64,000 nucleotides of DNA from Candidatus Omnitrophota bacterium (GTDB lineage: Bacteria; Omnitrophota; Gorgyraeia; JABMRN01; RBG-13-46-9), in contig JBDRHE010000059.1 of NCBI GenBank assembly GCA_043817155.1, forward strand, positions 65,540 to 129,539. Reading direction: 5' to 3'. Below the pieces are notes generated by a model that saw only the letters and a list, made by a program, of their open reading frames with translations, made no database searches and was not told the DNA's origin. The translations under genes and the position numbers were made by a program. Positions 29 to 59,235 of the stretch are shown here, one piece after another (position 1 is the first letter of the stretch; each line of letters starts with the position of its first letter).

Positions 29-1585
29 TCATTTCAATAGCCTCGTAATGAATTTCACAAGATCCACGTAACTGACCGGCTCCCTGTTGCATACAATGCG
101 AACCGCAAGTGAGCCCACCGCGTTCCCGATAAAAGATACAAGATCCTGGGGTAGCCCTTTCGCAAAACATGGCGCCACAAAAGAGAAGAACGCATCTCCG
201 GCCCCGATAGCATCGATAACCTGATAAGATAACGCAGGCGATTCATGGAATCCATCCGACCTGGAATAGGATAGTGAACCATGCGGCCCGCGGGTAGCGA
301 TGATATGTCCGCATCCCAACTGGTCATATATTCTCTTAGCAAGTGTACGCAAATTGCTCACCTTGTCGTGCGTAGCAAAGCGAAGTTCCATCTCGTCTAT
401 ACACACGCAGTTTGCGCGCGGATACTTCGTAACAAGATTAAACCCTATATTGGCGCTGTTCGTCTGTACATTTACAGCCAAATATTTAGCTTTTCGGCAG
501 ATGAGTTTTATGAGTTTTTTGGAAAGAAGCCCGTGCCCAAAATCCGAGACTACTATAAGATCATACCCCTTTAGGACCTTTTCCAAATACTGCCCTATCT
601 CAGTTTCAATATCTCGCTCGATAGTGTTATCGCCTATATGACAGATCTCGAATAGCTTCCTGTTGGTTCCTTCGTTAACGAACCTTCTCTTTACGACGGT
701 TTCCGCGTTAAGGCTTCGGAAGAATATCGGGTGGACGTTAGGCATCAACCTCTCCCGGATAAAATTCTCTACCGGGTCGTTCTCCCTGATCAAAGTCACG
801 AGATCAACATGATTACATACGCTTCCAACATTGTTTGCGGTGGCCAGGCTGCCGCCTGTAAATGATTCTTCCGATATGTAGCGGTTGGCGATAAGATGCT
901 CCTTGGAGGACTTCCCCATTGGCGAGCAATAATGGTACTGGTCTATTATGGCATCGCCGATCACCAGAGTCTTCATATTCCTAAGAGAGTTCAGACTATC
1001 CGTTACAGAACCTATGGTGTACCGCTTTCCGAGAGCTTTCAGATACTTTAAAGTTCTGGGAGGATATGGTTCCAGATAATCGCTTATCAGCTTTGATGAA
1101 CTGAATGTTATATCATCGGTAAACGCCATGCGTCCGCCTACCGATTTAACCGCCTCTTCCTCTTCATAGATCTTTCCGGTCACATCATCGGTCCTTCTTG
1201 AATACTCTGCTCCTTTAACATAAACATCGGGTTTCAGGAGCTTGATAGAATCGGTTGCCGTAGAAGAACCTGCTATCGCAACGAAGTCGGTAACGGCCAA
1301 AGATGCAAGTGTCTCCGCCCTTAAATGTTCGTTAAAGATCGGACGACCCGGCCCTCTCTTGACATGCTCGTCTCTTGTAATAGTAACCACGAGGACGTCT
1401 CCCTCTTTCTTCGCCAAATTGAAGTGTCGGATATGACCAAGATGAACAACGTCAAAGACACCGTGGCATTGGACTATCTTCTTTCCTCTCTTTTTGAAAT
1501 TTGCCACTATATCTGCGAGTGAATTTAAAGTCTTTATCTTCTTTGCGGTCTTATGATCCATATTAATCCTTTGCCAAATATGCAA
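29..1585 (-). CDS. Bifunctional sugar-phosphate nucleotidyltransferase / PfkB-family carbohydrate kinase, HldE/RfaE-like with swapped domain order (likely start near 1561, MDHKTAKK)
   Basis: N-terminal cytidylyltransferase-like HxGH motif (CHGVFDVVHLGHIRH) and block resembling HldE domain II; C-terminal PfkB kinase with DAIGAGDAF signature. This order is reversed relative to E. coli HldE. Confidence 0.6.
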   Translation of the reverse strand: MHIWQRINMDHKTAKKIKTLNSLADIVANFKKRGKKIVQCHGVFDVVHLGHIRHFNLAKKEGDVLVVTITRDEHVKRGPGRPIFNEHLRAETLASLAVTDFVAIAGSSTATDSIKLLKPDVYVKGAEYSRRTDDVTGKIYEEEEAVKSVGGRMAFTDDITFSSSKLISDYLEPYPPRTLKYLKALGKRYTIGSVTDSLNSLRNMKTLVIGDAIIDQYHYCSPMGKSSKEHLIANRYISEESFTGGSLATANNVGSVCNHVDLVTLIRENDPVENFIRERLMPNVHPIFFRSLNAETVVKRRFVNEGTNRKLFEICHIGDNTIERDIETEIGQYLEKVLKGYDLIVVSDFGHGLLSKKLIKLICRKAKYLAVNVQTNSANIGFNLVTKYPRANCVCIDEMELRFATHDKVSNLRTLAKRIYDQLGCGHIIATRGPHGSLSYSRSDGFHESPALSYQVIDAIGAGDAFFSFVAPCFAKGLPQDLVSFIGNAVGSLAVRIVCNREPVSYVDLVKFITRLLK

Positions 1586-2561
1586 ACCACTCCCGCGTGG
1601 CTTCCTTTATACTTTCTGGGTTCCACACTGGCGAACCTCGCCAATTATCTATATGACTTAACATAATCTCTACGCCCTCTTCAAAGCTGACTCGAGACTC
1701 CCATCCCAAAGCCTCTTTTACTTTCAGCGTATCAGCATGTGTGCATTCCGGTTCCCCGGGCCTTTTAGGGATGTGCGTACTTTTTCCGCCCAAAAGCTTC
1801 ACAAGAGAATTGATGCTTTGAGGGGTTCCCGAGCCTATATTAAATATTTCGTCCCTTATATTCGATCGCGCGGCACGTATAAATGCCTCTACCACGTCGT
1901 TAACAAACACAAAATCTCTTCTCTGCTCTCCGTCACCGACAATAGTAAATGAGGAACCGGCAAGCTTCTGTGCAAGAAAGACGCCGAATACCGCGCCGTA
2001 CGTTCCGGATGTCCTCGCCCGAGGACCGTAGACGTTGAATAGCCTTAACGAAACACACGGCATATCATATACTCTTCCCCAGTGCGTTACATATTGCTCA
2101 CCAACATACTTGGTAAGGGCATAGGGGTACATGGGCTTTATCGGAGCTGTCTCCCGCGTAGGCAATTCATCCGATATGCCATAACAAGAAGAGGATGCCG
2201 CGTATACAAATCGCCGAACGCCTGCCATTCGCGCTGCCTCCAGCACCGAAATAGTTCCGTCTACATTGGACCTGTGGTATTTTAATGGTTCCCGGATAGA
2301 AGGTACGATATCTGCAAGCGCGGCCAGGTGATATACCGAATGAACACCATGAAAATGATCCTTAATCTTATCGAAATCCGAAACGTCTACGTCGGAAATG
2401 GTTAGCCTGGAGTTGTCCGAAACGTTATCCAGGTTCTCTCTTTTGCCGTTTGAAAAATTATCAAGGACAATAACGTTCTCCCCATCACCGAGCAGGCGCT
2501 CAACCAGATGGCTACCTATAAAACCCGCGCCACCTGTAACAATTACCTTTTGACCGTTCAT
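1563..2561 (-). CDS. NAD-dependent sugar epimerase/dehydratase (extended SDR, UDP-sugar 4-epimerase-like)
   Basis: N-terminal [11 protein letters not shown] Rossmann motif; YxxxK catalytic motif (YALTKYVGE). Confidence 0.7.
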
Positions 2562-2570
2562 AAGATGTCC

Positions 2571-3761
2571 TTATTTATGCTTACCCACGCTATCCAATTT
2601 AAGGTCGAAGAAGGACTTCTTTGCGTTTGAGAGATCGGCCCTTTTCATTATGTCAACTATCCTCTTGGCGGCCCTTCCGTCACCGTACGGATTCTTCACA
2701 TTTCTGCAAATATTTCTAAAGTCAGCGGAATATGCGATTCTGAAAGCTCTCTTAATAGAGTTGAGACTGCCGTCAGCGTCAATGATCGATGCGGTCTTGA
2801 TCCTGCCAAGCTGCCTGGTCCCTACATTGACCGTTGGAATGCCGAAGGAAGGCGCCTCTATTATGCCGCTCGATGAATTACCCGCAACAACATCCATGTG
2901 CCGAAGGGCGCTTAAATATAGCGACCTCCCCATGGATGTGAAGCATGCAACCTTGTCTCTCCGATGAGAAACAAACCTGTCTATTAGAGCGTTTATCATC
3001 TTAGAATACATGTCGGGATTAGGCCGGGTAATTATTACCTTTGTATCCGCAAGCCCGCCCACAACCCCTAAGAGGTGTTTTAATTGTTCTTCCGAAACGG
3101 ATCTCTTTTCAGCCGTCATGGGGTTAAAGGTTATGATTATATTCCTCTTCCCAAGCTTAAACTTTATCTTCTTTTCAAATTCGTCTCTTTTAAATAATTC
3201 AGTATTTGCTATATTGTCCAGGCCCAAAGTACCGACATTGAATACACGCTCCGGCGCCTCACCCATCTGTATTACTCTATTTCTATAAGTATCTGTCGAT
3301 ACAAAATGCAAAAATGACATCTTTGTAATTGCATGCCTGAGGCTCTCATCGAGCGACCCTTCGGTCAATTCTCCACCGTTGATATGAGCGATCGGTATCT
3401 TCAGGAAGAGACATGCTACTCCTGCTGCCAGTGATTCAAACCGGTCACCCAATAAGAATACCGCGTCCGGCTTAAGAGCCCTTAATGCCTTCGTAAAGCC
3501 TGTAATGCCGGCGCTCACCGATCCGGCTATTGCGCCGGCGGTATCGCGGGAGAGCGGAAGCTTCACCTTGCGGTCTATTCTAAAACCGTCTCCTTCAATT
3601 TCTCTATAGGTTAAACCATATTCCGGTGAGAGATGCGCCCCTGTCGCCACAATCTGCAAAATATTGCGCCCCTTATTATTCTTTATCTCTGTAGCCAGGG
3701 GATAGAATAAGCCCCATTCGGCTCTCGTACCCGTCATAATGCAAAGTCTTCTCTTCTTCAT
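2571..3761 (-). CDS. UDP-N-acetylglucosamine 2-epimerase, hydrolysing type (NeuC/LegG-like)
   Basis: N-terminal CIMTGTRAEWGL motif typical of NeuC-type hydrolysing 2-epimerases; length 396 aa; directly downstream of a NeuB-family synthase. Confidence 0.7.
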   Translation of the reverse strand: MKKRRLCIMTGTRAEWGLFYPLATEIKNNKGRNILQIVATGAHLSPEYGLTYREIEGDGFRIDRKVKLPLSRDTAGAIAGSVSAGITGFTKALRALKPDAVFLLGDRFESLAAGVACLFLKIPIAHINGGELTEGSLDESLRHAITKMSFLHFVSTDTYRNRVIQMGEAPERVFNVGTLGLDNIANTELFKRDEFEKKIKFKLGKRNIIITFNPMTAEKRSVSEEQLKHLLGVVGGLADTKVIITRPNPDMYSKMINALIDRFVSHRRDKVACFTSMGRSLYLSALRHMDVVAGNSSSGIIEAPSFGIPTVNVGTRQLGRIKTASIIDADGSLNSIKRAFRIAYSADFRNICRNVKNPYGDGRAAKRIVDIMKRADLSNAKKSFFDLKLDSVGKHK

Positions 3762-5410
3762 AATTCTATAAACTCGTCTTTCTTAAAATCTCTTTTGGCG
3801 GCCCTTCCGAGCACATCATTCCATTCCATCGCGCTGATACCGGTGGCGGGTCTCTTCGTCGTCACATTCCCGGAAACGAATAGTTCCCCTCTTCTTATAG
3901 GCTTTGCCGCAATGATACTCTTGCGAACTATGGATCTATTTCTCATTTCTGAACCCGATACCCTTTTAACACCGTCACCCAGCGCTCTTTCGACATTCCT
4001 TATAGCGGATATCATCCTCTTTAGCTCCCCGGGTTCAACGGAAGCCTTATGGTCAGGACCTTTGGCATTCTTATTCAATGTAAAGTGTTTTTCTATTATC
4101 GAGGCTCCGAGGGCGACCGCTGCCACCGCTGCTTCTATGCCGGAAGTGTGGTCAGAATAACCTATCTTCACATTCAGTACGTCTTTAATCGTCAGCATAG
4201 CCTTTAAATTGGCATCCTCGTAAGGGGTCGGGTAGGCTGTGTTACAATGTAGAACTGTTATCTTCTCTTTTGACGTCCCTGATTCTACCAAAATATTCAC
4301 CGCGCTGTCGATGTCGCTTAGATTGGCCATTCCGGTCGATAGTATGATCTCCTTCCTTAAGCTTCCAACCTTCTTCAGGTACGGTAAGTTCGTAAGCTCT
4401 CCGGAAGGGATCTTTAATCTCTTGAGCTTAAGATCTTTGAGGAGCTCTACGCTCTCCAGATCAAATGGGCTCGACAGGAATTCTATTCCCCGCGCCTTGC
4501 AGTGCCCTATAAGCTCACGGTGCGTCTTAACGTCAAGCTCCAATCTCTTTAGCATATCGAGCTGCGATTCTTTGGCGCCGGATCTGCTCTTCTGGTACCG
4601 GGCTTTGGGCGCGGCGGCGCTTGCTACTCTCTCTGCTTTGAATGTCTGAAATTTGACAGCATCCGCGCCTGCTCTGGCCGCTACATCGACCATCCTCTTT
4701 GCCGTCTTCACGCTACCGTTGTGATTAACGCCGGCTTCAGCTATGATGAAGGTTTTTTTATTCTTGTCATCTGCATCACTATATTTAGGAAGAGATCTCC
4801 GGCCATCCTGTACATCATGTCGGACCGTCATACCGGTTCCAACCATGCACCTCTTGCCGATCTTTATACATTGGATAACATTTGCGCCGGTCCCTATATG
4901 GGCCTCCTCAGCGACCTTAACCCCTCCGCTCAATGTAGCCCTGGGCGCCACATGCACGAAATCCCCTATAATACAATCGTGATCTATTGAAGAGTACGTA
5001 TTGATAATAACATTCCTGCCTATCTTTGCGCCCGGGTTTATAACAGCAGCTGCCGCCACGAATGTTCCCTCTCTCATCTTAACATCCCCTGCCACCACCG
5101 CTTTCGGATGAACAATGACCGGCAACCTGAATCCCAGATCTGCCAGCTTCGAATAGAGCTTCTTCCTTGATCCGCAATTCCCGATCGAGCCGATCGAAAT
5201 AAAGGCATTCTTTACGCCATCCTTGCGCAGTTGTTTAAGCATATTATCGCTTCCCAAAACCTTGATTCCAAGAACGGTAGCGCCCTTTTTCAATTTTGGA
5301 TCAAGTATCCCACGGATATCAAATACGCCGGAACGCTTAATCGCGTCTATAACAACTTTGCAGTGTCCGCCGCCCCCAACAAGGATAATCTCTTCTGGCA
5401 CTCTTTTCAT
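3758..5410 (-). CDS. Fusion protein: N-terminal hexapeptide-repeat sugar N-acetyltransferase (NeuD/PglD-like) + C-terminal NeuB-family nonulosonic acid synthase with SAF domain
   Basis: Residues ~1-200 show a left-handed beta-helix acetyltransferase pattern with GGGGHCKVV N-terminus. Residues ~215-550 carry the NeuB block (IIAEAGVNHNGS, KFQTF) and a C-terminal SAF domain. Confidence 0.7.
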   Translation of the reverse strand: MKRVPEEIILVGGGGHCKVVIDAIKRSGVFDIRGILDPKLKKGATVLGIKVLGSDNMLKQLRKDGVKNAFISIGSIGNCGSRKKLYSKLADLGFRLPVIVHPKAVVAGDVKMREGTFVAAAAVINPGAKIGRNVIINTYSSIDHDCIIGDFVHVAPRATLSGGVKVAEEAHIGTGANVIQCIKIGKRCMVGTGMTVRHDVQDGRRSLPKYSDADDKNKKTFIIAEAGVNHNGSVKTAKRMVDVAARAGADAVKFQTFKAERVASAAAPKARYQKSRSGAKESQLDMLKRLELDVKTHRELIGHCKARGIEFLSSPFDLESVELLKDLKLKRLKIPSGELTNLPYLKKVGSLRKEIILSTGMANLSDIDSAVNILVESGTSKEKITVLHCNTAYPTPYEDANLKAMLTIKDVLNVKIGYSDHTSGIEAAVAAVALGASIIEKHFTLNKNAKGPDHKASVEPGELKRMISAIRNVERALGDGVKRVSGSEMRNRSIVRKSIIAAKPIRRGELFVSGNVTTKRPATGISAMEWNDVLGRAAKRDFKKDEFIEL

Positions 5411-6504
5411 CTTTTAATAACTTTCCTTATCACATCACAAATGTAGTGAATGTCCGCTTGCGAATTGAGTGTAGAACTGGGGAGACACAGGCCCTTATTG
5501 TGTATCTCCTGCGAATTAGCGCAAGTACCCTGTCTATACTTCCGATAAGGTGGAAAATCTTTTACCGGCGTAAAGACACGTCTTGTAACAATATCCCGCT
5601 TTCGTAACCCTAACTGTAGCCTGGGTATATTGCCCTCATATGTGATGCATGAAAGCCAATAGGCGCTTTCTGCGTTGGGATACTCTTCTTGAAAACGGAT
5701 ACTTTTAATACTCTTTAGTTCTTCGCGATAGATCCTATTAAACGTACGCTTCTTTTCCAAAAAGCCATCCAGTCTCTTAAGCTGGGCAAGCCCGAGTGCC
5801 GCTTCGATGTTCGTCATCCTCTCATTAAATCCTATTTCGCGGTGATAGTATTTGCCCGATTCATCCTTTGCCTGATTTGCCAGGAATTTGATGTGCTCAA
5901 GGACCCGGGTACGTTTTCCGACTATCATGCCGCCGCCGCCTGTTGTAATGGTCTTATTTCCATTAAAACTGAAACATCCGAAATCACCGAAAGTACCGGT
6001 ATGCCTTTTCTTAAATTTAGCGCCCAGGCTTGCGGCCGCGTCCTCAACAACATAAACACCATACTTCTTGGCAATGCCCATGATCTGGCTAATGTTGCAG
6101 GGGTTGCCGTAAAGGTGTACCGGTATTATAGCCTTTGTTCTCCTGGTTATATGCTTCCTTACTTTATGCGGATCGATGTTCCATGTGTCCGGATCTACAT
6201 CGACAAATACTGGGGTAGCGCCGACATATATTACCGGATTGACCGTAGCTACAAATGTAAGCGCCGGCACGATCACTTCGTCGCCGGCTCCTATGCCAAG
6301 CTCCCTTAACGCAATATGTATGGCCGTTGTTCCGCTCTGTGTGGAGACTGCCCTATTTGCTCCCAGATATTTCGCAAAGTTCTTTTCAAATTCCGAAACA
6401 AAGGGCCCAACGGTCGAAACATAGCCTTTATCGATAGCGCTGTTTAAATAGCTCTTTTCCAGGGCCCCGACATTTGGAGCATCCAAAAGGATCTTCTTAT
6501 ACAT
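5407..6504 (-). CDS. DegT/DnrJ/EryC1/StrS-family PLP-dependent sugar aminotransferase
   Basis: Typical DegT N-terminus (LLDAPNVGALEKSYLNSAIDKGYVS...GPFVSEFE); length 365 aa. Confidence 0.75.
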   Translation of the reverse strand: MYKKILLDAPNVGALEKSYLNSAIDKGYVSTVGPFVSEFEKNFAKYLGANRAVSTQSGTTAIHIALRELGIGAGDEVIVPALTFVATVNPVIYVGATPVFVDVDPDTWNIDPHKVRKHITRRTKAIIPVHLYGNPCNISQIMGIAKKYGVYVVEDAAASLGAKFKKRHTGTFGDFGCFSFNGNKTITTGGGGMIVGKRTRVLEHIKFLANQAKDESGKYYHREIGFNERMTNIEAALGLAQLKRLDGFLEKKRTFNRIYREELKSIKSIRFQEEYPNAESAYWLSCITYEGNIPRLQLGLRKRDIVTRRVFTPVKDFPPYRKYRQGTCANSQEIHNKGLCLPSSTLNSQADIHYICDVIRKVIKR

Positions 6505-7540
6505 TATAAATATCCGATTTATAAAGATTCAGGTTTTTCTTGTTCTTAAGCCATTTTATGGTCGCATCCAGACCCTGATCAAGTGAAAATTTTGGCCTCC
6601 AATCAGTTAACCTTGTGATCTTCTCATTGCACCCCATAAGACGCATAACTTCTGAACTCTTTGGCCTTACCCTCTTTCGATGCAGTACTATCCTGGCTTT
6701 TGGACTCACCTTGTTGATGATCTTCCTTGCCACATCCCCTATACTGATCTCTTGCCCGGAAGCTATGTTCAATTCCTGCCCGATCGTCTTTTGCGAACAC
6801 GCTATAGCGATAAATCCCCGGCAAACATCCTTTACGTAGTTGAAATCTCTTACCGGAGCAAGTGACCCGAGTTTAATCTTCGTCTCTCCCTTTAGAAGCT
6901 GTGTAATGATGGTAGGTATGATCGCTCTAGCCGACTGCCTGGGTCCATAAGTATTAAAAGGGCGCGCAATGGTAACCGGCGCGTTGAAAGACCTCATAAA
7001 CGATTCGGCAATCTTATCGGCCCCTATCTTGGAAGCGCTATATGGAGACTGCCCTTGCAAGGGATGCGCTTCATTTATGGGCACAGACCTTGCCGTCCCG
7101 TAAACTTCTGATGTAGACGTTACAATGATCCTCTTTACCTTCTGTTCCAATCCGGCCTTGAGAATATTAAGAGTTCCTTTTATGTTGGTATCAATGTAAG
7201 AATCCGGGGAGTAGTATGAAAATGGTATTCCTATTAGCGCGGCCAGATGAAATACAATGTCGATACCTTTCATGGCCCGTCTCACCCCACCGGGATCGCG
7301 CACATCACCTGTAAATATCTCGATCTTATCCACTCTCTTCTTATCAAAGCTATCGAGCCAGCCCCAGGAATTGAAGGAATTGTAAAAGACGAAGGCCCTG
7401 ACCTTACAGCCTTCATCAAGCAAGTGTTCTACAAGGTGGCTTCCTATAAAACCGTCGGCTCCTGTTACGAGGACTTTTCTATTTTTTAATTCCATCGCTC
7501 TCCTTCGTGCCAAACGGAATATTACTCCACAATCTCTCAT
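6497..7540 (-). CDS. NAD-dependent sugar 4,6-dehydratase/epimerase (extended SDR); likely start at internal MELKNRK (~7495)
   Basis: [18 protein letters not shown] Rossmann motif and YSASKIGADK YxxxK motif; position within a legionaminic/pseudaminic-like module. Confidence 0.7.
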   Translation of the reverse strand: MRDCGVIFRLARRRAMELKNRKVLVTGADGFIGSHLVEHLLDEGCKVRAFVFYNSFNSWGWLDSFDKKRVDKIEIFTGDVRDPGGVRRAMKGIDIVFHLAALIGIPFSYYSPDSYIDTNIKGTLNILKAGLEQKVKRIIVTSTSEVYGTARSVPINEAHPLQGQSPYSASKIGADKIAESFMRSFNAPVTIARPFNTYGPRQSARAIIPTIITQLLKGETKIKLGSLAPVRDFNYVKDVCRGFIAIACSQKTIGQELNIASGQEISIGDVARKIINKVSPKARIVLHRKRVRPKSSEVMRLMGCNEKITRLTDWRPKFSLDQGLDATIKWLKNKKNLNLYKSDIYNV

Positions 7541-7700
7541 GTAGATAATATAGCGCTGTTTTCAGTCCGTTTGCCGCTAGGGCTATAACTGTTGATTGCT
7601 TAACGTCTTTAGTAATGAAATAGACAACCACCCAGGTAATAGCCACAGCCATAAACCGCCACGTTATAGTCTTCGCCACTGTTCTCCTGTGTCGCTCCAT
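7479..7700 (-). CDS. Small membrane protein (DUF2061-like)
   Basis: 73 aa with two predicted TM helices (TITWRFMAVAITWVVVYFI); assignment by resemblance only. Confidence 0.35.
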   Translation of the reverse strand: MERHRRTVAKTITWRFMAVAITWVVVYFITKDVKQSTVIALAANGLKTALYYLHERLWSNIPFGTKESDGIKK

Positions 7701-7704
7701 AGCA

Positions 7705-8259
7705 TCACCTCGTTAATGCCATCTCTTTTTTACCATTTCTTTTAGGTTTGATCTTAAATATATTACTCAAGAGTGTTGAATTAACGAGATTGAATAAGGA
7801 TTGGGCCTTGCCATGCAGGCTATTCAATTCATCCAATCTTTGTTTGAACAACCTCATGGTCCCCTGATCTTCTTCACTCGCGGAATTGATCACATTCAAA
7901 GCCTGGTAAGAAGAATCGATCATCTCCTTGAATTCAAGCATCCTATGTTGCGTCATAGACCTTACCCTATCCATTATTACTTTGGATATATCCCCTTCTG
8001 CTTCGTAATAGTCTCTTCTCGATCCCTTTACCCAGATTTTATGCACAGCCCCATACCGTTCAAGGGCCCTCATGTTGATGCTCGCGCTTCCCTTACTTAT
8101 CTTAAGCTGCTCCACCATGTCATTAAGCGACAGTGGCTTGCTGCTTAAGTAAAGAAGCGCATAAAGCTGGGCCATAATATTATTGAGTCCGAATTTAGCG
8201 CATATCTGGTTAATCTTGTCAAGAAATAGATACTGTGCCTGAGCCAATTCTTCATTCAT
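7705..8259 (-). CDS. Winged-helix transcriptional regulator, GbsR/MarR-like
   Basis: HTH region LSLNDMVEQLKISKGSASINMRALERYGAV followed by WVKGSRRDYYEA, reminiscent of the GbsR/OpcR choline-responsive repressor family. Confidence 0.5.
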   Translation of the reverse strand: MNEELAQAQYLFLDKINQICAKFGLNNIMAQLYALLYLSSKPLSLNDMVEQLKISKGSASINMRALERYGAVHKIWVKGSRRDYYEAEGDISKVIMDRVRSMTQHRMLEFKEMIDSSYQALNVINSASEEDQGTMRLFKQRLDELNSLHGKAQSLFNLVNSTLLSNIFKIKPKRNGKKEMALTR

Positions 8260-11188: not shown

Positions 11189-11224
11189 GATTGTGCTCGA
11201 ATCTATGCCACCGCTTAAAAACGC

Positions 11225-41522: not shown

Positions 41523-41550
41523 TATCCACCCCTTATCTGATAGGTCTCTT

Positions 41551-53429: not shown

Positions 53430-54119
53430 TTAGCGTTTCTTACCGTACCCCAATACCATCAGCTCCACCGACCATCTGAAAAACTTAATTCCGGTTGCCC
53501 TCGTGATCTTTCTGGCCAGGGGTGTCGATATTAAAGACCTTATTACGAAACTTAGCATTCTGAGCGCCGGAAAACGCCAGATAGCGGGCAATTGATAAAA
53601 TAGCTCGGCGCCTTCTTCTTTGAACCCATATATCTTTAAAGCATCCTCAAGGGCTCTTGCGTCATAAGGCTTCTCGTGCGTGATATCCTCAAAGAAGACC
53701 TTCATCTGGCTTCCCCAGTCAGGCGTAAGTATGATGACCATGCCCCCTGGTTTAAGAACCCTGTACGTCTCCTTCATAAGGCGTTCGGGAGACCGCAAAT
53801 GCTCGATAAGCGACTTGTGATAAACATAATCGAAGCTATTGTCGACAAAGGGGAGAGATTCCTTAGTTATGTCAACGCATGTAAAGGTATCGGCCCCGCC
53901 ATCTTTAACACAGTGATCGCTTAAATCCACTCCCTTGCAATCCAGTTTCAATTCCTGAAAAGCCTTCAAGAACTCTCCCCTTCCGCATCCTACCTCAAGA
54001 AGCCTCTGGCCCTCTTTCATATTGAATCTATCAAAGAGATATCCTGTAAGCCTCCTTGGGTAATCGGTCTTTGGAGCTCTCTTTTCACTATAAACGACCG
54101 ATAAGTAATCCCTCTTCAT
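53430..54119 (-). CDS. Class I SAM-dependent methyltransferase
   Basis: Motif I LLEVGCGRGEF. Confidence 0.65.
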   Translation of the reverse strand: MKRDYLSVVYSEKRAPKTDYPRRLTGYLFDRFNMKEGQRLLEVGCGRGEFLKAFQELKLDCKGVDLSDHCVKDGGADTFTCVDITKESLPFVDNSFDYVYHKSLIEHLRSPERLMKETYRVLKPGGMVIILTPDWGSQMKVFFEDITHEKPYDARALEDALKIYGFKEEGAELFYQLPAIWRFPALRMLSFVIRSLISTPLARKITRATGIKFFRWSVELMVLGYGKKR

Positions 54120-54553
54120 TTCTTAGTAATCTCCTCCACCAATTCTACGAGGTTCCCTTCAGGATCCCTGCAGAATGCGACTTTCGCAAAACCACCTGTT
54201 GATAACATGGGCTCTGAATTAAAACACACCCCTTTTACCCTTAATCTATTGTAGACTGAATTAAGATCGGAGACGGTAAACGCGATATGCGATAAGCCCG
54301 GATCATAAGGAGCGCTTTGATCTTCTCTCTTTGTCAGATGCGATCCAAACCATAGAAGTTCTAAAAGCCCCCCTGTGTCCGCTTCCATTTTGATCGTTCT
54401 GACCCTAGTGCCTTTAGTATCTAAAACCGCGTCTATGTACGGCCCTGTCTCTACCTCATCCTTTACTATCCTTAGACCCAGCAGATCGCGGTAGAAATGG
54501 AGCTCCTTATCCAGATCGAATATTACTATGCCTGTATGTCTAAAGGCTTTCAT
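54116..54553 (-). CDS. VOC-family (glyoxalase/bleomycin-resistance/dioxygenase fold) protein
   Basis: HTGIVIFDLDKELHFYRDLLGL N-terminal VOC motif; 145 aa. Confidence 0.6.
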   Translation of the reverse strand: MKAFRHTGIVIFDLDKELHFYRDLLGLRIVKDEVETGPYIDAVLDTKGTRVRTIKMEADTGGLLELLWFGSHLTKREDQSAPYDPGLSHIAFTVSDLNSVYNRLRVKGVCFNSEPMLSTGGFAKVAFCRDPEGNLVELVEEITKK

Positions 54554-55944
54554 CTTCTTGTCTTGTCTGCCTCCAATATCGCTTCTTCAAACACATCAAG
54601 TCCCTCAATAAGCGCGGAGTCCGGAATTGTTAAAGGGGGACCGATCTTAACGGACTCCCTTCCGGTATGCACGAGAAGCAACCCTTTCTGCATAGCTTTT
54701 TCGCAGACCCTATTTGAAAAGTCTACATCCGGCTTACCTGTTACAGGATCTTTAAATATGATCGCCGCAATAAGTCCGTTACTGAAATAGTATGCTATTC
54801 TGTTTGAAAACCTCTCTTTTAGTTCAGCAAGCCTGGCTCTTAATATATTACCCTTCCTTGCGGATTCTCCGACTAAATCACCCTCTTCAATAACTTCCAG
54901 ATTGGCAAGTCCCGCCGTACAGCATAACGGATTTGCAGAATGTGTGCTGCTCATCGACCCGACTCCGGGTAGATCCATTATCCCTCTCGAGCCCAGAACG
55001 GCCGAGAGCGGCAGGGACCCGCTCAGGGCTTTCCCTATGCATAAGATATCGGGCTTTACACCATAATGCTGGTACGCGAATAACTTCCCGCTTCTTCCAA
55101 AGCCTCCTTGTATATCATCGAATATTAACAGGCTCTTGTTTTTTTTAGCAAAATTATTAAGCGCTTTAATGTAGTCTTTTGGATAGAAGTATGCTGCCCA
55201 ACCCACGTAAGATTCTATGAAGAAACCGGCTATATTCTTTGGCTTCAATCCTCTTTTCTGTAGCGCTTTGATGTCGCGGGTAAAACGCTTCCCCCAATCG
55301 GGCTTACCGCTTTCACCATCACTCATGGTCCATGGATATGGAATCTGCAGATGGTATATGTGAGGGTCTCTATGACCTATCCACGCTGACGAAGCCGGAT
55401 CGCCTTTTAACATCTCGGCTCCCATGGTTCGGCCGTGCATGCTTCCCTTAAATGAAATTATGACTCTCTTTGACGGTCTTATGGTCTGACCGTAAAGCCT
55501 GGCAAGCTTTAAAGCGCACTCGGTCGCCTCTGTACCCGAGGATAGCAAGAAGGCTTTTTGAAACTGGCGCGGCGTAATAGCGATCAACTTCCTTAAGAAC
55601 TTTACCCGTGATTCATTAGCAAAGGTGTACGAATGGAGAAGATCCTGATCGAGCGCCTTCTTAAGCGCCGAAACGATTTTAGGATTTGCGTGCCCGGAGT
55701 TTGTAACAAATATAGTTGAAGTGAAGTCGATCCAGCAATTACCGTACCTGTCAAATACCTTATAATCCTTCGCTCTATTCCAGACGACCGGCAGCTGACC
55801 GTGCATGGACCTGGACTCCACCCGTTCCAGTTCTTTAAGAATGGCTATTGAAGCCGGCACCGGGATCTTCGTCTTGATTCTCCTGTTCCTGGTATGCACG
55901 AGCCTCACGCTCTTTGGCGCTTTTGTGAATTTGTAACCGCTCAT
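54550..55944 (-). CDS. Class III PLP-dependent aminotransferase
   Basis: SGTEATECALKLAR; PLP lysine region DILCIGKALSG; D-I-Q..FGR motif. Confidence 0.7.
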   Translation of the reverse strand: MSGYKFTKAPKSVRLVHTRNRRIKTKIPVPASIAILKELERVESRSMHGQLPVVWNRAKDYKVFDRYGNCWIDFTSTIFVTNSGHANPKIVSALKKALDQDLLHSYTFANESRVKFLRKLIAITPRQFQKAFLLSSGTEATECALKLARLYGQTIRPSKRVIISFKGSMHGRTMGAEMLKGDPASSAWIGHRDPHIYHLQIPYPWTMSDGESGKPDWGKRFTRDIKALQKRGLKPKNIAGFFIESYVGWAAYFYPKDYIKALNNFAKKNKSLLIFDDIQGGFGRSGKLFAYQHYGVKPDILCIGKALSGSLPLSAVLGSRGIMDLPGVGSMSSTHSANPLCCTAGLANLEVIEEGDLVGESARKGNILRARLAELKERFSNRIAYYFSNGLIAAIIFKDPVTGKPDVDFSNRVCEKAMQKGLLLVHTGRESVKIGPPLTIPDSALIEGLDVFEEAILEADKTRR

Positions 55945-56702
55945 ACTTTTACTCGTTTTGAATAATTATCTCTTAAATGATCGTAAATAGGATTTCCATA
56001 TTTTTCGAGCTGATACTCAAGATAGCCGAAGTCCTCCGGAAGGTCAACCTCGGTTGTAACGGGAGTAACGAATCCAAGCATAGCTGTCCCGTATAAAGAT
56101 CCGGTCTCTTCTACAAAGGATCTCTTTACTATATCAACATACCCGTTTGCGTGATAGGCTTTTGGGAAGAGTTGTCTTGGAAGATTGTAATACTCGGGCC
56201 TCTTGTCTCCGGGGAAGAAACCCTTAAAGAATCCTTTCTCATCAAGCTGGAATTCCTTTTGTGGAGGCTCTGCAAGTTCGTGCGCCGACCGCAGTGACGT
56301 AGAATCCGCCTTCTCTCCGATAAGCGCGACAGCCCGATCTATCACTTCTGCGTCTCTTAGCGGTGTAGTAGGCCGGAGGTGCACCAAGAGACCGGCAGCT
56401 CCATTCTCATTTTCCTTAAACCAGGAGATGGCATGCTGAAATAATTCAAGATCTGTAGATCTATCTTGCGATATCTCCGCCGGCCGCAAAAATGGTACCT
56501 CTGCTCCAAATGCCTTTGAGATATCTGCGATCTGGTCAGAATCGGTCGATACAATTACCCGCTCTATCTTCTTAGAGAGCGACGCTGCCAATATTGAGTA
56601 AGCGATCAAGGGATACCCGCCAAGGAGTTTAATATTCTTACCCGGCACGCCTTTCGAACCGCCCCTTGCGGGTATCAGGGCTATTATATCGGCTCTCTTC
56701 AT
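55941..56702 (-). CDS. Acylneuraminate cytidylyltransferase (CMP-nonulosonic acid synthetase, NeuA/LegF/PseF family)
   Basis: N-terminal IALIPARGGSKGVPGKNIK motif diagnostic of CMP-NeuAc/CMP-Kdo synthetase family. Confidence 0.75.
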   Translation of the reverse strand: MKRADIIALIPARGGSKGVPGKNIKLLGGYPLIAYSILAASLSKKIERVIVSTDSDQIADISKAFGAEVPFLRPAEISQDRSTDLELFQHAISWFKENENGAAGLLVHLRPTTPLRDAEVIDRAVALIGEKADSTSLRSAHELAEPPQKEFQLDEKGFFKGFFPGDKRPEYYNLPRQLFPKAYHANGYVDIVKRSFVEETGSLYGTAMLGFVTPVTTEVDLPEDFGYLEYQLEKYGNPIYDHLRDNYSKRVKV

Positions 56703-56705
56703 CTT

Positions 56706-57551
56706 CTATCCTTCTTTCATCGCGCCATCATTTACACAAGGGTCCTCGATATCGTAATCATGCGCCGTAGGAACACCCCAGAAATGGCAATACGAACAGA
56801 GCGGTATCTTATTCCTGCTCCCTCTTTTATGCAACTCCATCCACTCGGCCCTTCTCTTACCGTTCCATATCTCATCTAAAGAATCTCTCTTCGCATCCCC
56901 GATCACTCCAAGGCCTTTCGGATCAAAGCGGACGCATATAGAGACCTTGCCGCAGATGTTAACGCAAAGATGGTGGAGAAAATCCCAGCATATTCCGATC
57001 TCCGGTATAGTCGGGTTCTTCTTCCTGTAGTTGAAGCTGCCCATCTTGGCATGTAGTACCCTTCTTATAATAAGAGATCCCAGCTCCTGGTACCTTGCAG
57101 GATCCACATCCCCAATGAGCCGTAGACTGGTAAAAGGCTTTCTCGCGCCTTTAAGCTTAAGAAATCTCTTTATGAGCTTATATTGCTCATCCGCCTCTGT
57201 ATCACCTTCAAATACGGATACAGAGATGGTGTCCAGATTGTCGATGATCTCTTCGGACTTCTCAAGTAAGAGCTTGCCGTTAGTGACTATATTCTTTATC
57301 TGCTTTGAGAATAATTTAACCGCATCACCAAAACGCGGATAGAGGAGCGCCTCTCCATCCCTATGAAACTGGACAACTATATTCTCCGGCAGCTGCGAAG
57401 CCAGCCTTCCGACAAGTTCAAAATCCATGTCACCGTACTTGAGAGCAAGTTCCGGATGATCCCTGTCTACCTTACGCCTGCCGCACATCCAGCAGGCCTT
57501 GTTACACCTGGAGGTAAGCTCAATGTTGATGCATGCAAGTCCGCTTAGCAT
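56706..57551 (-). CDS. Radical SAM protein (non-B12), with C-terminal Cys-rich SPASM/twitch-like region
   Basis: CNKACWMC CxxxCxxC near N-terminus; additional Cys clusters CVNICGKVSIC and CSYCHFWG. Confidence 0.6.
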   Translation of the reverse strand: MLSGLACINIELTSRCNKACWMCGRRKVDRDHPELALKYGDMDFELVGRLASQLPENIVVQFHRDGEALLYPRFGDAVKLFSKQIKNIVTNGKLLLEKSEEIIDNLDTISVSVFEGDTEADEQYKLIKRFLKLKGARKPFTSLRLIGDVDPARYQELGSLIIRRVLHAKMGSFNYRKKNPTIPEIGICWDFLHHLCVNICGKVSICVRFDPKGLGVIGDAKRDSLDEIWNGKRRAEWMELHKRGSRNKIPLCSYCHFWGVPTAHDYDIEDPCVNDGAMKEG

Positions 57552-57610
57552 TGTATTGCCTCTGTCATCTTAACAAAATTCGTTATCCTTCGAATCGTCC
57601 GTATTCCGTC

Positions 57611-57905
57611 ATCTCTCTTCTGTCTTTGCGAGGCACATTGTCATTCGAAGCGTGCCGAAGCCTGCCTGCCGGCAGGCAGGCAGGCAATCTCGCTTTCCTT
57701 CGTCTTTGCGAGGCACCGGAATATTCGAGCGTGCCGAAGCAATCTCTGCTTACCTCGTCTTTGCGAGGCACCGTAAAATTCGAGCGTGCCGAAGCAATCT
57801 CATTCGAGCTAGTTTGAGATTGCTTCGGTGCGCTAACCTATTTACGGCACCTCGCAAAGACGGGTAAAACATTGCTTCGGTGCGCTAGCTCTTTACGGCA
57901 CCTCG
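57611..57905. repeat. BIME/REP-like array: three direct ~46-bp units (gtctttgcgaggcac-N7-ttcgagcgtgccgaagcaatctc) followed by two inverted units; first unit carries an inserted ctgcctgccggcaggcagg palindrome
   Basis: Direct reading of repeats in the 408-bp intergenic region. Related partial unit at 59757-59830; related gc-palindrome at 59526-59547. Confidence 0.75.
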
Positions 57906-57959
57906 CAAAGACGAGTAAATAATCGTCCTACGTCCTACGTCCATCGTAGCGTAAAATTG

Positions 57960-58841
57960 TCATATATGCGATCCCATGCGCCTTAGTTTCTTAATAATAG
58001 GTATCTCGCTATCATATATCTTTATATCGCCGTCACCTTTTGCCGTTTCCCAGTTTCTTATATCGGTAACTAGTCTAACCAAACCCTGCGGCTCAACGGA
58101 CGCTGCTTGATCACTCCCCCACATGGACCTATCTAATGTTATATGCCTTTCAACGCAAGATGCCCCAAGCACAGCAGCTGCAAAAGTTGTATATAATCCA
58201 ACCTCGTGGCCTGAATAGCCGATTGGCACATCATATTCTTCTCTCAAAGTTACAATACCTCTTAAGTTTAACTCCTCAGACTTCGAAGGATATGTGCTTG
58301 TACAATGCATTATGATCAAATTATCCGTTCCAAGTATATTTACCGCGCGTTCGATCATCTTCGCGTCGCTCATGCCTGTAGACAGGATCATGGGCTTCCC
58401 TTTCTCTTTATGATACCGTAACAGGCTCTCGTCGGTAAGGGTAGCTGACGCGATCTTGTAGCACGGAGGATCGAACTGGCTGATAAAATCTACGGAAGCC
58501 TCATCCCACGAGGAGGCGAACCAATCGATACCCCTCTCTTTGCAGTACCTGTCGATCTCTTTATATTTTTTGAGATCGAACTCAAGCCCTCTTTTCAAAT
58601 CTCCGTTAGTAGGGCCGAATGGATTCTCCCTCGGCTTTGAAAGCTCCTCCTGGCTGTAAACTGTTTCGACTGTTCTCTTTTGAAATTTAACTGCATCGCA
58701 ACCCGAGTTCAGGGCAACATCGATCAGTTTCTTTGCGATATCCACACTCCCGTTGTGGTTGATCCCGATCTCAGCTATTACGTAGCAAGAATGCTCGTCT
58801 CCGATCACCTTATCTCCTATTCTTACTGTCTTCCTTGCCAT
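57960..58841 (-). CDS. NeuB-family nonulosonic acid synthase lacking the C-terminal SAF domain
   Basis: VIAEIGINHNGS and KFQK blocks of NeuB/PseI/LegI; 293 aa, so the ~60-aa SAF domain is absent. Confidence 0.7.
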   Translation of the reverse strand: MARKTVRIGDKVIGDEHSCYVIAEIGINHNGSVDIAKKLIDVALNSGCDAVKFQKRTVETVYSQEELSKPRENPFGPTNGDLKRGLEFDLKKYKEIDRYCKERGIDWFASSWDEASVDFISQFDPPCYKIASATLTDESLLRYHKEKGKPMILSTGMSDAKMIERAVNILGTDNLIIMHCTSTYPSKSEELNLRGIVTLREEYDVPIGYSGHEVGLYTTFAAAVLGASCVERHITLDRSMWGSDQAASVEPQGLVRLVTDIRNWETAKGDGDIKIYDSEIPIIKKLRRMGSHI

Positions 58842-58866: not shown

Positions 58867-59235
58867 CTAAACCTTGATCTCCTTCTTAAAATTCTCGATC
58901 TCGAGCTTTAGCCTCGCATATTGTTGGGTCTTCCAGGTTAAGAATTCGCGTGCCAGGCGTATCTTCGTCTTAATACCGTATGGCGTGAGCAAATACATGT
59001 AAGCAAGTTTTCTCTTTGAATTCTTAAAATTCTGTATCTTTATAACGCCTTTATCCACAAGGGCGTTGATAAGAAAGTTTATCTTCCCTAGGCTAACTGT
59101 CATCTTTTCGGCAAGATAGCGCTGGGTAGCCTGCGGGTTCTTCTCTATCTCCCTTATCAGATGGTAGGCCTCTTCAGATTCAAAAATATCAACAACCTTG
59201 CCGTTTGTTATCTTCTTCTGGTTACCGTTCTTCAT
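58867..59235 (-). CDS. MarR-family winged-helix regulator (EPS-locus-associated type); start placed at internal MKNGNQK
   Basis: wHTH region QRYLAEKMTVSLGKINFLINALVDKGVI; ~120 aa from the internal Met. The ORF track extends to 59397. Confidence 0.5.
   Translation of the reverse strand: MKNGNQKKITNGKVVDIFESEEAYHLIREIEKNPQATQRYLAEKMTVSLGKINFLINALVDKGVIKIQNFKNSKRKLAYMYLLTPYGIKTKIRLAREFLTWKTQQYARLKLEIENFKKEIKV

What the first reader, a model, noticed from the sequence alone, without database searches (positions are those of the whole stretch)
1563..7540. Compact legionaminic/pseudaminic-type nonulosonic acid module with an acetyltransferase-NeuB fusion protein
The gene order SDR dehydratase (6497-7540) - DegT aminotransferase (5407-6504) - [hexapeptide acetyltransferase::NeuB synthase] (3758-5410) - hydrolysing 2-epimerase (2571-3761) matches the PglF/LegB -> LegC -> LegH -> LegI -> LegG logic for 5,7-diacetamido nonulosonic acids. 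The N-acetyltransferase and the synthase are fused into one 550-aa polypeptide. The activating CMP-synthetase (55941-56702) is ~50 kb away and is paired with a second, SAF-less NeuB homologue (57960-58841). This suggests two different nonulosonic acids, or a nonulosonic plus an octulosonic sugar.
Basis: partly seen in the sequence, partly recalled or inferred. Interest (0 to 1): 0.6.

Follow-up and report, generated by a model that had tools for sequence, protein, structure and literature searches.

The report
Legionaminic acid genes with fused enzyme
This is an ordinary four-gene core set for making the bacterial sialic-acid-like sugar legionaminic acid, from an uncultured Omnitrophota bacterium. 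Two of its enzymes (the acetyltransferase and the sugar-acid synthase) are joined into one protein, a rare arrangement already present in public metagenome data.

Summary
All pass curated HMM cut-offs.

The fusion is very probably real. Thirty independent metagenome protein clusters (45-62% identical) share the same colinear architecture and a linker of similar length. Catalytic residues of both halves are invariant among them.

The NeuB half is LegI-type: 57% identical to the Campylobacter Leg-locus synthase, against 36% to the other NeuB in that locus.

Three points need correcting:
- The SDR at 1563-2561 is not part of the module. It forms a conserved pair with the reversed HldE-like gene at 29-1585.
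- The CMP-synthetase at 55941-56702 is not the module's activator. It belongs to a separately conserved cassette, in the same order elsewhere: SAF-less NeuB, BtrN-like radical-SAM, NeuA-like synthetase, class-III aminotransferase, VOC, methyltransferase.
- A true LegF orthologue (MFH1593938.1) lies on the same 137-kb contig, about 17 genes beyond the window's left edge.

Two different CMP-activated ulosonic acids are therefore likely. Verdict: new member of a known kind, low to moderate interest.

The parts
7705..8259 (-). Winged-helix (MarR/TrmB-like) regulator gene directly upstream of legB. It is the likely first gene of the unit.
   Evidence: Weak MarR_2/TrmB Pfam hits. It is 58% identical to the gene in the same position upstream of legB in related locus L002. 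The best promoter-like site lies at 8348-8321 and a terminator-like site at 8464-8447 upstream, but promoter-like sites are no more frequent than in shuffled sequence (20 vs 17.2 +/- 4.1).
6497..7540 (-). legB: NAD-dependent NDP-GlcNAc 4,6-dehydratase (step 1).
   Evidence: TIGR04180 LegB 493.8 bits against a cut-off of 475; PseB only 88 bits. It is 55% identical to the LegB of the Campylobacter volucris Leg locus.
5407..6504 (-). legC: PLP-dependent 4-aminotransferase (step 2).
   Evidence: TIGR04181 LegC 421.8 bits against a cut-off of 420; PseC 258.8, below its cut-off of 423.5. DegT Pfam E=4e-110.
4802..5410 (-). N-terminal domain of the fusion (res 1-203): PglD/PerB-like left-handed beta-helix N-acetyltransferase, assigned as LegH (step 3).
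   Evidence: PglD_N + Hexapep; TIGR03570 204.6 > 160.8. Best solved relatives are 4-amino-sugar-nucleotide N-acetyltransferases: PerB (named 'Perosamine N-acetyltransferase' in the table; its GDP-linked substrate is from my own knowledge) 4ea7 E=3.5e-35, then PglB-ATD, VioB and PglD. GGGGH 12-16 and H144-D145 are invariant in 29 fused homologues.
4754..4801 (-). Inter-domain linker (res ~204-219), Lys/Asp-rich, containing an A7 run.
   Evidence: AF2 pLDDT is below 50 at residues 210-214, with both flanking domains confident. Linkers in the 30 fused homologues vary in sequence but are similar in length and end in K/R-rich ...KK(V/T)FIIAEAG.
3758..4753 (-). C-terminal NeuB + SAF part of the fusion (res 220-550, plus stop): legionaminic acid synthase LegI (step 5).
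   Evidence: TIGR03569 497.5 > 399.65; PseI 287.7 < 340.25. It is 57% identical to the Campylobacter Leg-locus synthase against 36% to the second NeuB of that locus. E225, K253, Q255, H421, H442 and R520 are invariant.
2571..3761 (-). legG: hydrolysing NDP-sugar 2-epimerase (step 4). Its start overlaps the stop of the fusion gene.
   Evidence: TIGR03568 NeuC_NnaA 427.5 > 235.9; the non-hydrolysing WecB model scores only 75 bits. It is 65% identical to the L002 gene in the same position.
1563..2561 (-). SDR nucleotide-sugar epimerase/dehydratase.
   Evidence: No equivalog cut-off is reached. It sits directly upstream of an HldE-like gene at 55-68% identity in about 50 of 80 metagenome loci, only one of which (L116) also has a Leg-type synthase-epimerase-ptm block close by.
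29..1585 (-). Reversed-order HldE-like bifunctional protein (nucleotidyltransferase at the N-terminus, PfkB kinase at the C-terminus). It is the partner of the SDR and not part of the Leg module.
   Evidence: CTP_transf_like 41-165 + PfkB 361-496; rfaE domain II and I hits below cut-off; full-length homologues at 48-72% identity in 80 loci.
53430..58841 (-). Separate conserved cassette: SAF-less NeuB (57960-58841), BtrN-like radical-SAM/SPASM (56706-57551), NeuA-like CMP-synthetase (55941-56702), class-III aminotransferase (54550-55944), VOC/glyoxalase-fold protein (54116-54553), methyltransferase (53430-54119).
   Evidence: Domains. The same six genes occur in the same order at 50-76% identity in L083/L084. 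The only PDB hit of the rSAM protein is BtrN, E=5.5e-9. The synthetase matches NeuA (1e-29) far better than KdsB.

Best explanation
The region 2571-8259 is a regulator-led operon from a Candidatus Omnitrophota MAG. It encodes the five core activities of the Campylobacter-type legionaminic acid pathway in four genes.

The proposed steps are:
1. LegB dehydrates NDP-GlcNAc (GDP-GlcNAc in the characterised system) at C4/C6.
2. LegC aminates C4.
3. The N-terminal PglD/PerB-like domain of the 550-aa protein N-acetylates that amine (LegH activity).
4. LegG removes the nucleotide and epimerises C2.
5. The C-terminal NeuB+SAF part of the same 550-aa protein condenses the resulting 2,4-diacetamido-2,4,6-trideoxymannose with PEP to give Leg5Ac7Ac (LegI activity).

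The fusion arose from adjacent, overlapping legH and legI genes. It tethers two independently folding domains through a ~16-residue flexible linker, so steps 3 and 5 are co-expressed 1:1 and co-localised.

Precursor supply (PtmE/PtmF/PtmA-type genes) is not in the window. The CMP-Leg synthetase is not in the window either: a LegF orthologue lies about 17 genes further along the same contig. The CMP-synthetase at 55941 instead serves a second, independently conserved cassette built around a SAF-less NeuB.

Shown here: gene content, domain content, orthology, conservation of the fusion and of the cassette. Inferred: substrate identities, the nucleotide carrier, and any channelling benefit.
For: - Exact ORFs and a continuous 550-aa frame.
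- Curated HMM cut-offs passed for LegB, LegC, NeuC/LegG, NeuB/LegI and the NeuD/PglB/VioB family; Pse models are below cut-off.
- 55% (LegB) and 57% (LegI) identity to the Campylobacter volucris legB...legI-legG-ptmE-ptmF-legF-ptmA locus, against 36% to that locus's other NeuB.
- 30 protein clusters from ENA, JGI and Logan assemblies have the same colinear fusion at 45-62% identity and 96-100% coverage. Both inspected relatives (L001, L002) are true single ORFs preceded by legB-legC.
- The linker is similar in length (within a few residues) across the fused proteins and has shared end motifs.
- Catalytic motifs of both halves are invariant.
- The AF2 model has pLDDT 89, with only the linker disordered.
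- The N-domain's nearest solved relatives are NDP-4-amino-sugar N-acetyltransferases.
- The window CTP_transf_3 is 23% identical to L002 LegF, while LegG is 65% identical.
- The cassette is syntenic in L083/L084.
- The LegF orthologue P0495 = MFH1593938.1 is on the same 137,462-bp contig and absent from the window. The source contig is identified by P0021/P0121.
Against: - No reads are available, so a 1-nt assembly error at the junction cannot be formally excluded. The junction carries an A7 run, and an out-of-frame ATG-CAG-ATG lies 1 nt off the NeuB frame.
- An Omnitrophota genome representative (L003, 63% identical) has separate overlapping legH/legI genes.
- NCBI's own annotation calls only a 329-aa NeuB from an ATC start.
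- LegC passes its cut-off by only 1.8 bits.
- The HMM family of the N-domain also covers NeuD O-acetyltransferases.
- No PtmE/PtmF/PtmA homologue is in the window, so the nucleotide carrier is unknown.
- The placement of LegF on the same contig rests on contig length, source and accession order, not on sequence I could read.
Confidence: 0.8

Rival explanations
1. The fusion in this window is an assembly or sequencing artefact. The organism really has two overlapping genes (legH stop inside the legI start region), and a 1-nt indel error merged the frames.
For: The junction contains an A7 homopolymer and an out-of-frame ATGCAGATG 1 nt away from the NeuB frame. Relative L003 has exactly such an overlapping two-gene arrangement. 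In GTDB representative genomes, all 18 apparent full-length matches turned out to be two adjacent genes.
Against: Thirty independently assembled fused homologues exist. The window's in-frame linker resembles theirs in length and end motifs (RHD..DG..S... and ...KNKK(V/T)F). The out-of-frame ATGs are simply what GAT-GCA-GAT-GAC (Asp-Ala-Asp-Asp) codons produce. No other sign of indel errors was seen in 64 kb of tightly packed ORFs; the one interrupted gene is a substitution to TGA.
Confidence: 0.08
2. The N-terminal domain is a NeuD-type protein (a nonulosonate O-acetyltransferase and/or stabiliser of the synthase) rather than the pathway's 4-N-acetyltransferase LegH, and the real LegH is elsewhere.
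For: TIGR03570 is a subfamily model that covers NeuD as well as PglB/VioB. In E. coli K1, NeuD interacts with NeuB in a two-hybrid assay and is thought to stabilise or activate it (cited in PMC2408645), so a NeuD::NeuB fusion would make sense. Halorubrum has both legH and neuD (PMC6137143).
Against: No other PglD-like gene lies in or next to the module. The only other hexapeptide acetyltransferase (61533-62117) sits in a WbpB/E/D-like trio 55 kb away. The domain follows legB-legC in pathway order here and in L001/L002. Its best solved relatives are all N-acetyltransferases of NDP-4-amino-4,6-dideoxy sugars, and the catalytic His-Asp is invariant.
Confidence: 0.12
3. One reading: the CMP-synthetase at 55941-56702 is the activating enzyme for the Leg made by this module, possibly serving both NeuB products.
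For: It is the only CTP_transf_3 gene inside the 64-kb window. It is NeuA-like rather than KdsB-like. Its identity to Leg-linked synthetases in other loci is 32-39%, so cross-activity is not impossible.
Against: It is 23% identical to L002 LegF, while neighbouring orthologues are 58-65% identical. It is embedded in a six-gene cassette conserved in order elsewhere without Leg genes. A 55%-identical LegF orthologue exists on the same contig outside the window.
Confidence: 0.1
4. The module is a decaying or incomplete remnant. Relative to L002 and L116 it has lost the ptmE-ptmF-legF-ptmA block and no longer makes CMP-Leg.
For: In L002 and L116 those genes lie directly after legG. In the window, legG is followed at once by the SDR/HldE-like pair, and no PtmE/PtmA homologue is present. 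One nearby gene (the AsnB-like amidotransferase) carries an in-frame stop.
Against: All four genes are intact, with invariant catalytic residues and translationally coupled overlaps. A LegF orthologue is retained on the contig. Precursor genes may lie in the unseen 73 kb of the contig or elsewhere in the genome.
Confidence: 0.08

Closest known systems
Campylobacter jejuni CMP-legionaminic acid pathway (LegB, LegC, LegH, LegG, LegI, LegF with PtmE/PtmF/PtmA; pathway as summarised in PMC6137143 and PMC5378307)
   Same: The same five core enzyme families. LegB and LegC pass the equivalog HMMs built for this pathway. Identity to the Campylobacter volucris Leg-locus LegB and LegI is 55% and 57%. 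The legI-legG adjacency is shared.
   Different: LegH and LegI are one polypeptide here, whereas in C. jejuni legH (Cj1298; gene number from my own knowledge, not checked here) is a separate, unlinked gene. The ptmE/ptmF/ptmA genes are absent from the window, and legF is about 17 genes away rather than adjacent.
Uncharacterised PglD_N-Hexapep-NeuB-SAF proteins in public metagenomes (e.g. P0001 on ERZ24794666 NODE_7818; P0029 on JGI 3300045917, which JGI names 'N,N'-diacetyllegionaminate synthase')
   Same: Same colinear four-domain architecture, ~545-555 aa, 45-62% identity, preceded by legB-legC and (in L002) followed by legG.
   Different: The window protein is at most 62% identical to any of them. 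L002 also carries ptmE, legF, ptmF and ptmA directly downstream.
E. coli K1 / group B Streptococcus NeuD-NeuB pair
   Same: An acetyltransferase of the same HMM subfamily is encoded next to, and reported to bind, the NeuB synthase (PMC2408645). The fusion is a covalent version of such a pairing.
   Different: NeuD is described as a sialic acid O-acetyltransferase/stabiliser in a Neu5Ac pathway. Here the context (LegB, LegC) and the nearest structures (PerB, PglB, VioB, PglD) point to N-acetylation of a nucleotide-linked 4-amino sugar.
Other nonulosonate-pathway gene fusions: Leptospira NeuB::phosphatase and mammalian epimerase::kinase GNE (PMC3438082); CTP_transf_3::NeuB, Epimerase_2::NeuB and CBS::NeuB proteins in the database
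   Same: NeuB is joined to another enzyme of the same pathway in one ORF.
   Different: The partner domain differs, and here the fused steps (3 and 5) are not consecutive.

Membership tests
Campylobacter-type legionaminic acid biosynthesis | LegB-type NAD-dependent 4,6-dehydratase | tested here: met
   TIGR04180 493.8 bits > cut-off 475; 55% identity to Campylobacter Leg-locus LegB.
Campylobacter-type legionaminic acid biosynthesis | LegC-type aminotransferase | tested here: met
   TIGR04181 421.8 bits > cut-off 420, a narrow margin; PseC model below its cut-off.
Campylobacter-type legionaminic acid biosynthesis | 4-N-acetyltransferase (LegH) | tested here: inconclusive
   PglD-like domain present, subfamily HMM passed, catalytic His-Asp invariant, nearest structures are NDP-4-amino-sugar N-acetyltransferases. 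The HMM does not separate LegH from NeuD, and activity was not testable.
Campylobacter-type legionaminic acid biosynthesis | Hydrolysing 2-epimerase (LegG/NeuC type) | tested here: met
   TIGR03568 427.5 > 235.9; WecB model 75 bits.
Campylobacter-type legionaminic acid biosynthesis | LegI-type synthase (as opposed to NeuB or PseI) | tested here: met
   NeuB_NnaB equivalog passed and PseI below cut-off. 57% identity to the Leg-locus synthase against 36% to the other NeuB in Campylobacter volucris. Homologues are named N,N'-diacetyllegionaminate synthase by JGI.
Campylobacter-type legionaminic acid biosynthesis | Dedicated CMP-Leg synthetase (LegF) | tested here: met
   Not in the window. An orthologue (P0495 = MFH1593938.1, 55% identical to L002 LegF) is on the same 137,462-bp contig, 21 accession numbers below the NeuB entry.
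Campylobacter-type legionaminic acid biosynthesis | GDP-GlcNAc supply genes (PtmE guanylyltransferase with CBS domain, PtmF, PtmA) | tested here: not met
   tblastn of L002 and L116 PtmE/PtmF/PtmA against the window finds nothing significant except a weak GFO-fold hit. The rest of the genome could not be examined.
NeuB family nonulosonate synthases (PF03102 + SAF) | TIM-barrel NeuB domain with metal-binding His pair, catalytic Glu and SAF-domain Arg | tested here: met
   Pfam NeuB E=4e-98 and SAF E=4e-8. E225, H421, H442 and R520 are invariant in the fused family. Residue roles are taken from N. meningitidis NeuB as summarised in PMC8208679.
Pseudaminic acid pathway | PseB/PseC/PseI equivalogs | tested here: not met
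   PseB 88 bits (cut-off 407.75), PseC 258.8 (423.5), PseI 287.7 (340.25).
   Both proteins hit only the NeuB family in Pfam, NCBIfam and PDB. No KdsA/DAHP model appears.

The most novel reading that the evidence does not exclude
It makes a second CMP-activated nonulosonate by a different logic. A SAF-less NeuB would build the keto-acid backbone first. A BtrN-like radical-SAM dehydrogenase and a class-III aminotransferase would then install an amino group after condensation and without oxygen, followed by methylation. This contrasts with the classical route, where amino groups are introduced on the nucleotide-hexose before condensation. The organism would then decorate its surface with Leg plus a new amino-ulosonic acid. 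Separately, the LegH::LegI fusion would be covalent ('Rosetta-stone') evidence that PglD/NeuD-type acetyltransferases and NeuB synthases work as a physical complex.
Probability: 0.25. Interest if true: 0.6.

Novelty: new member of a known kind. Interest (0 to 1): 0.25.

Why it matters
It extends Campylobacter-type legionaminic acid biosynthesis to Omnitrophota, a phylum without cultured model organisms. I found no paper in the searchable library that mentions both Omnitrophota and nonulosonic acids.

It documents a natural LegH::LegI fusion that could be a convenient two-in-one enzyme for chemo-enzymatic Leg synthesis. The fusion also supports, by gene fusion, the reported NeuD-NeuB interaction.

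The practical lesson for annotation is that NCBI's record trims this protein to a 329-aa NeuB. The nearest CMP-synthetase in a window is also not necessarily the pathway's own.

None of this changes the understanding of the pathway itself.

Tried and rejected
- Recovering the contig beyond the window's left edge. Exact-product look-ups for four window or NCBI proteins found nothing on record. The genome contigs and metagenome-contig scans did not contain the source genome (best 63% and 72% identity). The indirect route via contig length and accession order worked instead.
- Taking the 18 'full-length' tblastn matches in GTDB genomes (Campylobacter, Bacillus, Chitinophaga, Geobacteraceae and others) as fusions. 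An ORF check showed all are two adjacent genes, in either order. I therefore rejected the idea that the fusion is common in cultured bacteria.
- Testing whether the fusion arose once. A neighbour-joining tree of the NeuB domain showed fused and unfused proteins interspersed, with all about 57-66% identical. It is unresolved and I draw no conclusion.
- Treating the SDR at 1563-2561 and the HldE-like gene as Leg accessory genes (for example precursor activation). I rejected this because they form a conserved pair in ~50 loci that lack a Leg-type synthase/ptm block.
- Assuming that L116 ORF 206-877 was LegH. It matches a methyltransferase instead.
- Literature searches for a described LegH-LegI or NeuD-NeuB fusion, and for NeuB combined with radical SAM. 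No relevant paper was found.
- Promoter and terminator scans. Counts are no higher than in shuffled sequence, so they give only a weak hint of the operon start.

Full report
**Source and observation**

The window comes from a Candidatus Omnitrophota MAG. Two of its proteins are 100% identical to NCBI entries MFH1593959.1 and MFH1594007.1, both on a 137,462-bp contig. The whole 64 kb is one minus-strand glycan-biosynthesis region.

Scores against curated models, with cut-offs in brackets:

| Coordinates | Assignment | Model | Bits (cut-off) |
|---|---|---|---|
| 6497-7540 | LegB | TIGR04180 | 493.8 (475) |
| 5407-6504 | LegC | TIGR04181 | 421.8 (420) |
| 2571-3761 | hydrolysing 2-epimerase NeuC/LegG | TIGR03568 | 427.5 (235.9) |
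| 3758-5410, res 8-203 | NeuD/PglB/VioB acetyltransferase | TIGR03570 | 204.6 (160.8) |
| 3758-5410, res 220-548 | NeuB | TIGR03569 | 497.5 (399.65) |

The 3758-5410 ORF is an uninterrupted 550-codon frame. Its Pfam domains are PglD_N, Hexapep, NeuB and SAF. The pseudaminic acid models (PseB, PseC, PseI) all fall below their cut-offs. Successive genes overlap by 4-8 nt, as expected for one translationally coupled operon.

**Is the fusion real?**

A search of 5.8 billion proteins found 30 clusters with the same colinear architecture. They are 480-767 aa long (most ~545-555 aa), 45-62% identical and cover 96-100% of the query. They come from ENA, JGI and Logan assemblies.

In the two relatives I inspected (L001, L002) the fusion is a single ORF preceded by legB and legC. 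Linkers differ in sequence but are similar in length (within a few residues). Many share the motifs seen in the window: RH(D/N)..DG..S at the start and a basic ...KK(V/T)F just before IIAEAGVNH.

In an alignment of 29 fused proteins the key residues of both halves are invariant:
- N-domain: GGGGH 12-16 and H144-D145.
- NeuB half: E225, K253, Q255, H421, H442 and the SAF-domain R520.

An AlphaFold2 model has mean pLDDT 89, with only residues 210-214 below 50. This indicates two folded domains on a flexible tether.

There are caveats:
- The junction carries an A7 run and an out-of-frame ATGCAGATG.
- An Omnitrophota genome representative (L003) has overlapping but separate genes.
- Every apparent full-length match in GTDB representative genomes proved to be two adjacent genes.
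- NCBI annotated only a 329-aa NeuB from an ATC start.

I put the probability that the fusion is genuine at about 0.9.

**How rare is it?**

Against 1.84 billion 50%-identity representatives, about seven clusters are full-length colinear fusions, out of 5,944 hits with E<=1e-30. The same list contains CTP_transf_3::NeuB, Epimerase_2::NeuB and CBS::NeuB proteins. One relative (P0018) carries an additional formyltransferase domain. NeuB is therefore often fused to pathway partners, and this partner is one of the rarer ones. A crude tree did not resolve whether the fusion arose once.

**Which sugar?**

The Campylobacter volucris locus L004 has the order neuB-neuC-neuA-like, legB, acetyltransferase, legI, legG, ptmE, ptmF, legF, ptmA. 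The window's LegB is 55% identical and its NeuB half 57% identical to the Leg-locus proteins. Identity to the other NeuB of that locus is only 36%.

The N-domain's nearest solved structures are N-acetyltransferases of nucleotide-linked 4-amino-4,6-dideoxy sugars:
- PerB (perosamine N-acetyltransferase; its GDP-linked substrate is from my own knowledge), E=3.5e-35
- Neisseria PglB acetyltransferase domain
- VioB
- PglD

The domain follows legB-legC in pathway order, and no other PglD-like gene is nearby. Together these support the LegB -> LegC -> LegH domain -> LegG -> LegI domain route to Leg5Ac7Ac (pathway as summarised in PMC6137143 and PMC5378307).

Steps 3 and 5 are fused while step 4 is the next gene. 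A plausible benefit is stoichiometric co-expression and co-localisation. A physical NeuD-NeuB interaction was reported in E. coli K1 (PMC2408645). Any channelling is inference.

**Boundaries**

A winged-helix regulator gene (7705-8259) precedes legB here and, at 58% identity, in L002.

On the other side, the SDR at 1563-2561 and the reversed-order HldE-like gene at 29-1585 form a pair. That pair is found together in about 50 of 80 metagenome loci, and only L116 has a Leg-type synthase-epimerase-ptm block close by. They are a separate unit, probably for nucleotide-heptose synthesis (inference from the weak rfaE/heptose-epimerase hits). The module proper is therefore 2571-7540, plus the regulator.

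**What is missing, and the CMP-synthetase question**

In L002 and L116, legG is followed by ptmE, ptmF, legF and ptmA. The window has none of these.

- It is only 23% identical to L002 LegF, whereas LegG and the regulator are 65% and 58% identical.
- It lies inside a cassette found in the same order at 50-76% identity in L083/L084, where no Leg genes are nearby. The order is SAF-less NeuB, radical-SAM/SPASM, CTP_transf_3, class-III aminotransferase, VOC, methyltransferase.
- A search with L002 LegF found P0495 (240 aa, 55% identical). NCBI lists it as MFH1593938.1 on a 137,462-bp Omnitrophota contig. That is 21 accession numbers below the NeuB entry, and it is not encoded in the window.

Accession numbers rise with window coordinate. 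The LegF orthologue should therefore lie about 17 coding sequences beyond the window's left edge. Its assignment to the Leg module is not supported.

**The second cassette**

The SAF-less NeuB belongs to a tightly conserved family (69-80% identity) found in Omnitrophota, Chloroflexi, Nitrospirae, Peptococcaceae and an archaeon. All members are ~290-300 aa. A 290-aa solved relative exists (6NCS). SAF-less synthases are already known to make up about 30% of UniProt nonulosonate synthases (PMC8208679).

The partner synthetase resembles NeuA (E=1e-29) far more than KdsB (5e-8). This favours a nine-carbon-type product over Kdo.

The only solved relative of the small radical-SAM protein is BtrN (E=5.5e-9). 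BtrN is known to me as the radical-SAM alcohol dehydrogenase of butirosin biosynthesis. Next to a class-III aminotransferase, this suggests an OH -> C=O -> NH2 conversion. That is speculative. It is the most novel reading left open.

**Verdict**

This is a correctly spotted, ordinary Leg core module with a rare but already-sequenced LegH::LegI fusion, in a phylum where it has not been discussed. It is a new member of a known kind, with interest of about 0.25.

Noticed in passing
window 53430-58841 (minus strand): A conserved cassette: SAF-less NeuB, BtrN-like radical-SAM/SPASM protein, NeuA-like CMP-synthetase, class-III aminotransferase, VOC/glyoxalase-fold protein and methyltransferase. The same order occurs at 50-76% identity in L083/L084. 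It probably makes a second, uncharacterised CMP-activated ulosonic acid.
   Followed up: partly
window 39757-47207 (minus strand): Phosphonate biosynthesis genes: a PEP mutase fused to an NTP_transf_3 nucleotidyltransferase (45570-47207), a two-subunit TPP decarboxylase (45085-45573 and 44513-45088), a class-V aminotransferase (40458-41522) and a second NTP_transf_3 (39757-40461). This suggests a nucleotide-activated aminoethylphosphonate-type decoration of the glycan.
   Followed up: no
window 17966-19501, 29268-30824, 33853-35316, 38212-39687, 41551-43056, 43056-44648, 51710-53098: Seven B12-binding radical-SAM genes lie in one 64-kb glycan locus, several next to the phosphonate genes, plus many class-I methyltransferases. 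That is an unusually high density and hints at extensive C- or P-methylation.
   Followed up: no
window 10121-12013, stop at about 11222-11224: An XrtA/PEP-CTERM-type asparagine-synthase-like amidotransferase is split by a single in-frame TGA. The stop falls where the conserved Gly of the SDVP-G-xFLSGGxDSS motif is expected (...YSDVPL*AFLSGGIDSS...). It is a point-mutation pseudogene or a base error, not an indel.
   Followed up: partly
window 29-2561 (minus strand): An SDR epimerase and a reversed-domain-order HldE-like protein (nucleotidyltransferase N-terminal, PfkB kinase C-terminal) form a gene pair conserved at 48-72% identity in dozens of metagenome contigs. It is possibly an NDP-heptose module with a domain order opposite to E. 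coli HldE.
   Followed up: partly
window 60403-63990 (minus strand): A GFO/IDH/MocA oxidoreductase (UDP-GlcNAc 3-dehydrogenase-like), a DegT aminotransferase and a hexapeptide acetyltransferase form a WbpB/WbpE/WbpD-like trio for a 2,3-diacetamido sugar. An SDR gene flanks them, and a MarR_EPS regulator lies at 58867-59397.
   Followed up: no
window 3758-4747 / NCBI MFH1593959.1: The public annotation of this genome calls only a 329-aa 'N-acetylneuraminate synthase' starting at an ATC codon (MIAEAG...). It ignores the in-frame 221 upstream codons that encode the acetyltransferase domain.
   Followed up: yes
proteins P0018, P0259, P0283, P0296, P0302, P0328: Other NeuB fusion architectures exist in public data: formyltransferase::PglD-like::NeuB (767 aa), CBS::NeuB, CTP_transf_3::NeuB and Epimerase_2::NeuB.
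   Followed up: partly
L085/L086 (Peptococcaceae-type contigs): A 72%-identical SAF-less NeuB sits in a quite different context: a SIS + HAD-phosphatase fusion, a class-IV aminotransferase, an AP_endonuc_2-fold protein, two short-chain dehydrogenases and a CTP_transf_3. The same synthase subfamily therefore seems to feed differently tailored products, possibly via a phosphorylated intermediate.
   Followed up: no
window 16314-17963, 20368-21762, 22625-24154: Two PMT_2-type (dolichyl-phosphate-mannose-like) membrane glycosyltransferases and an MBOAT O-acyltransferase lie within the same locus. Five ORFs of 276-624 aa (14292-15725, 21763-22650, 35321-36295, 37388-38218, 48820-50694) have no Pfam match.
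   Followed up: no
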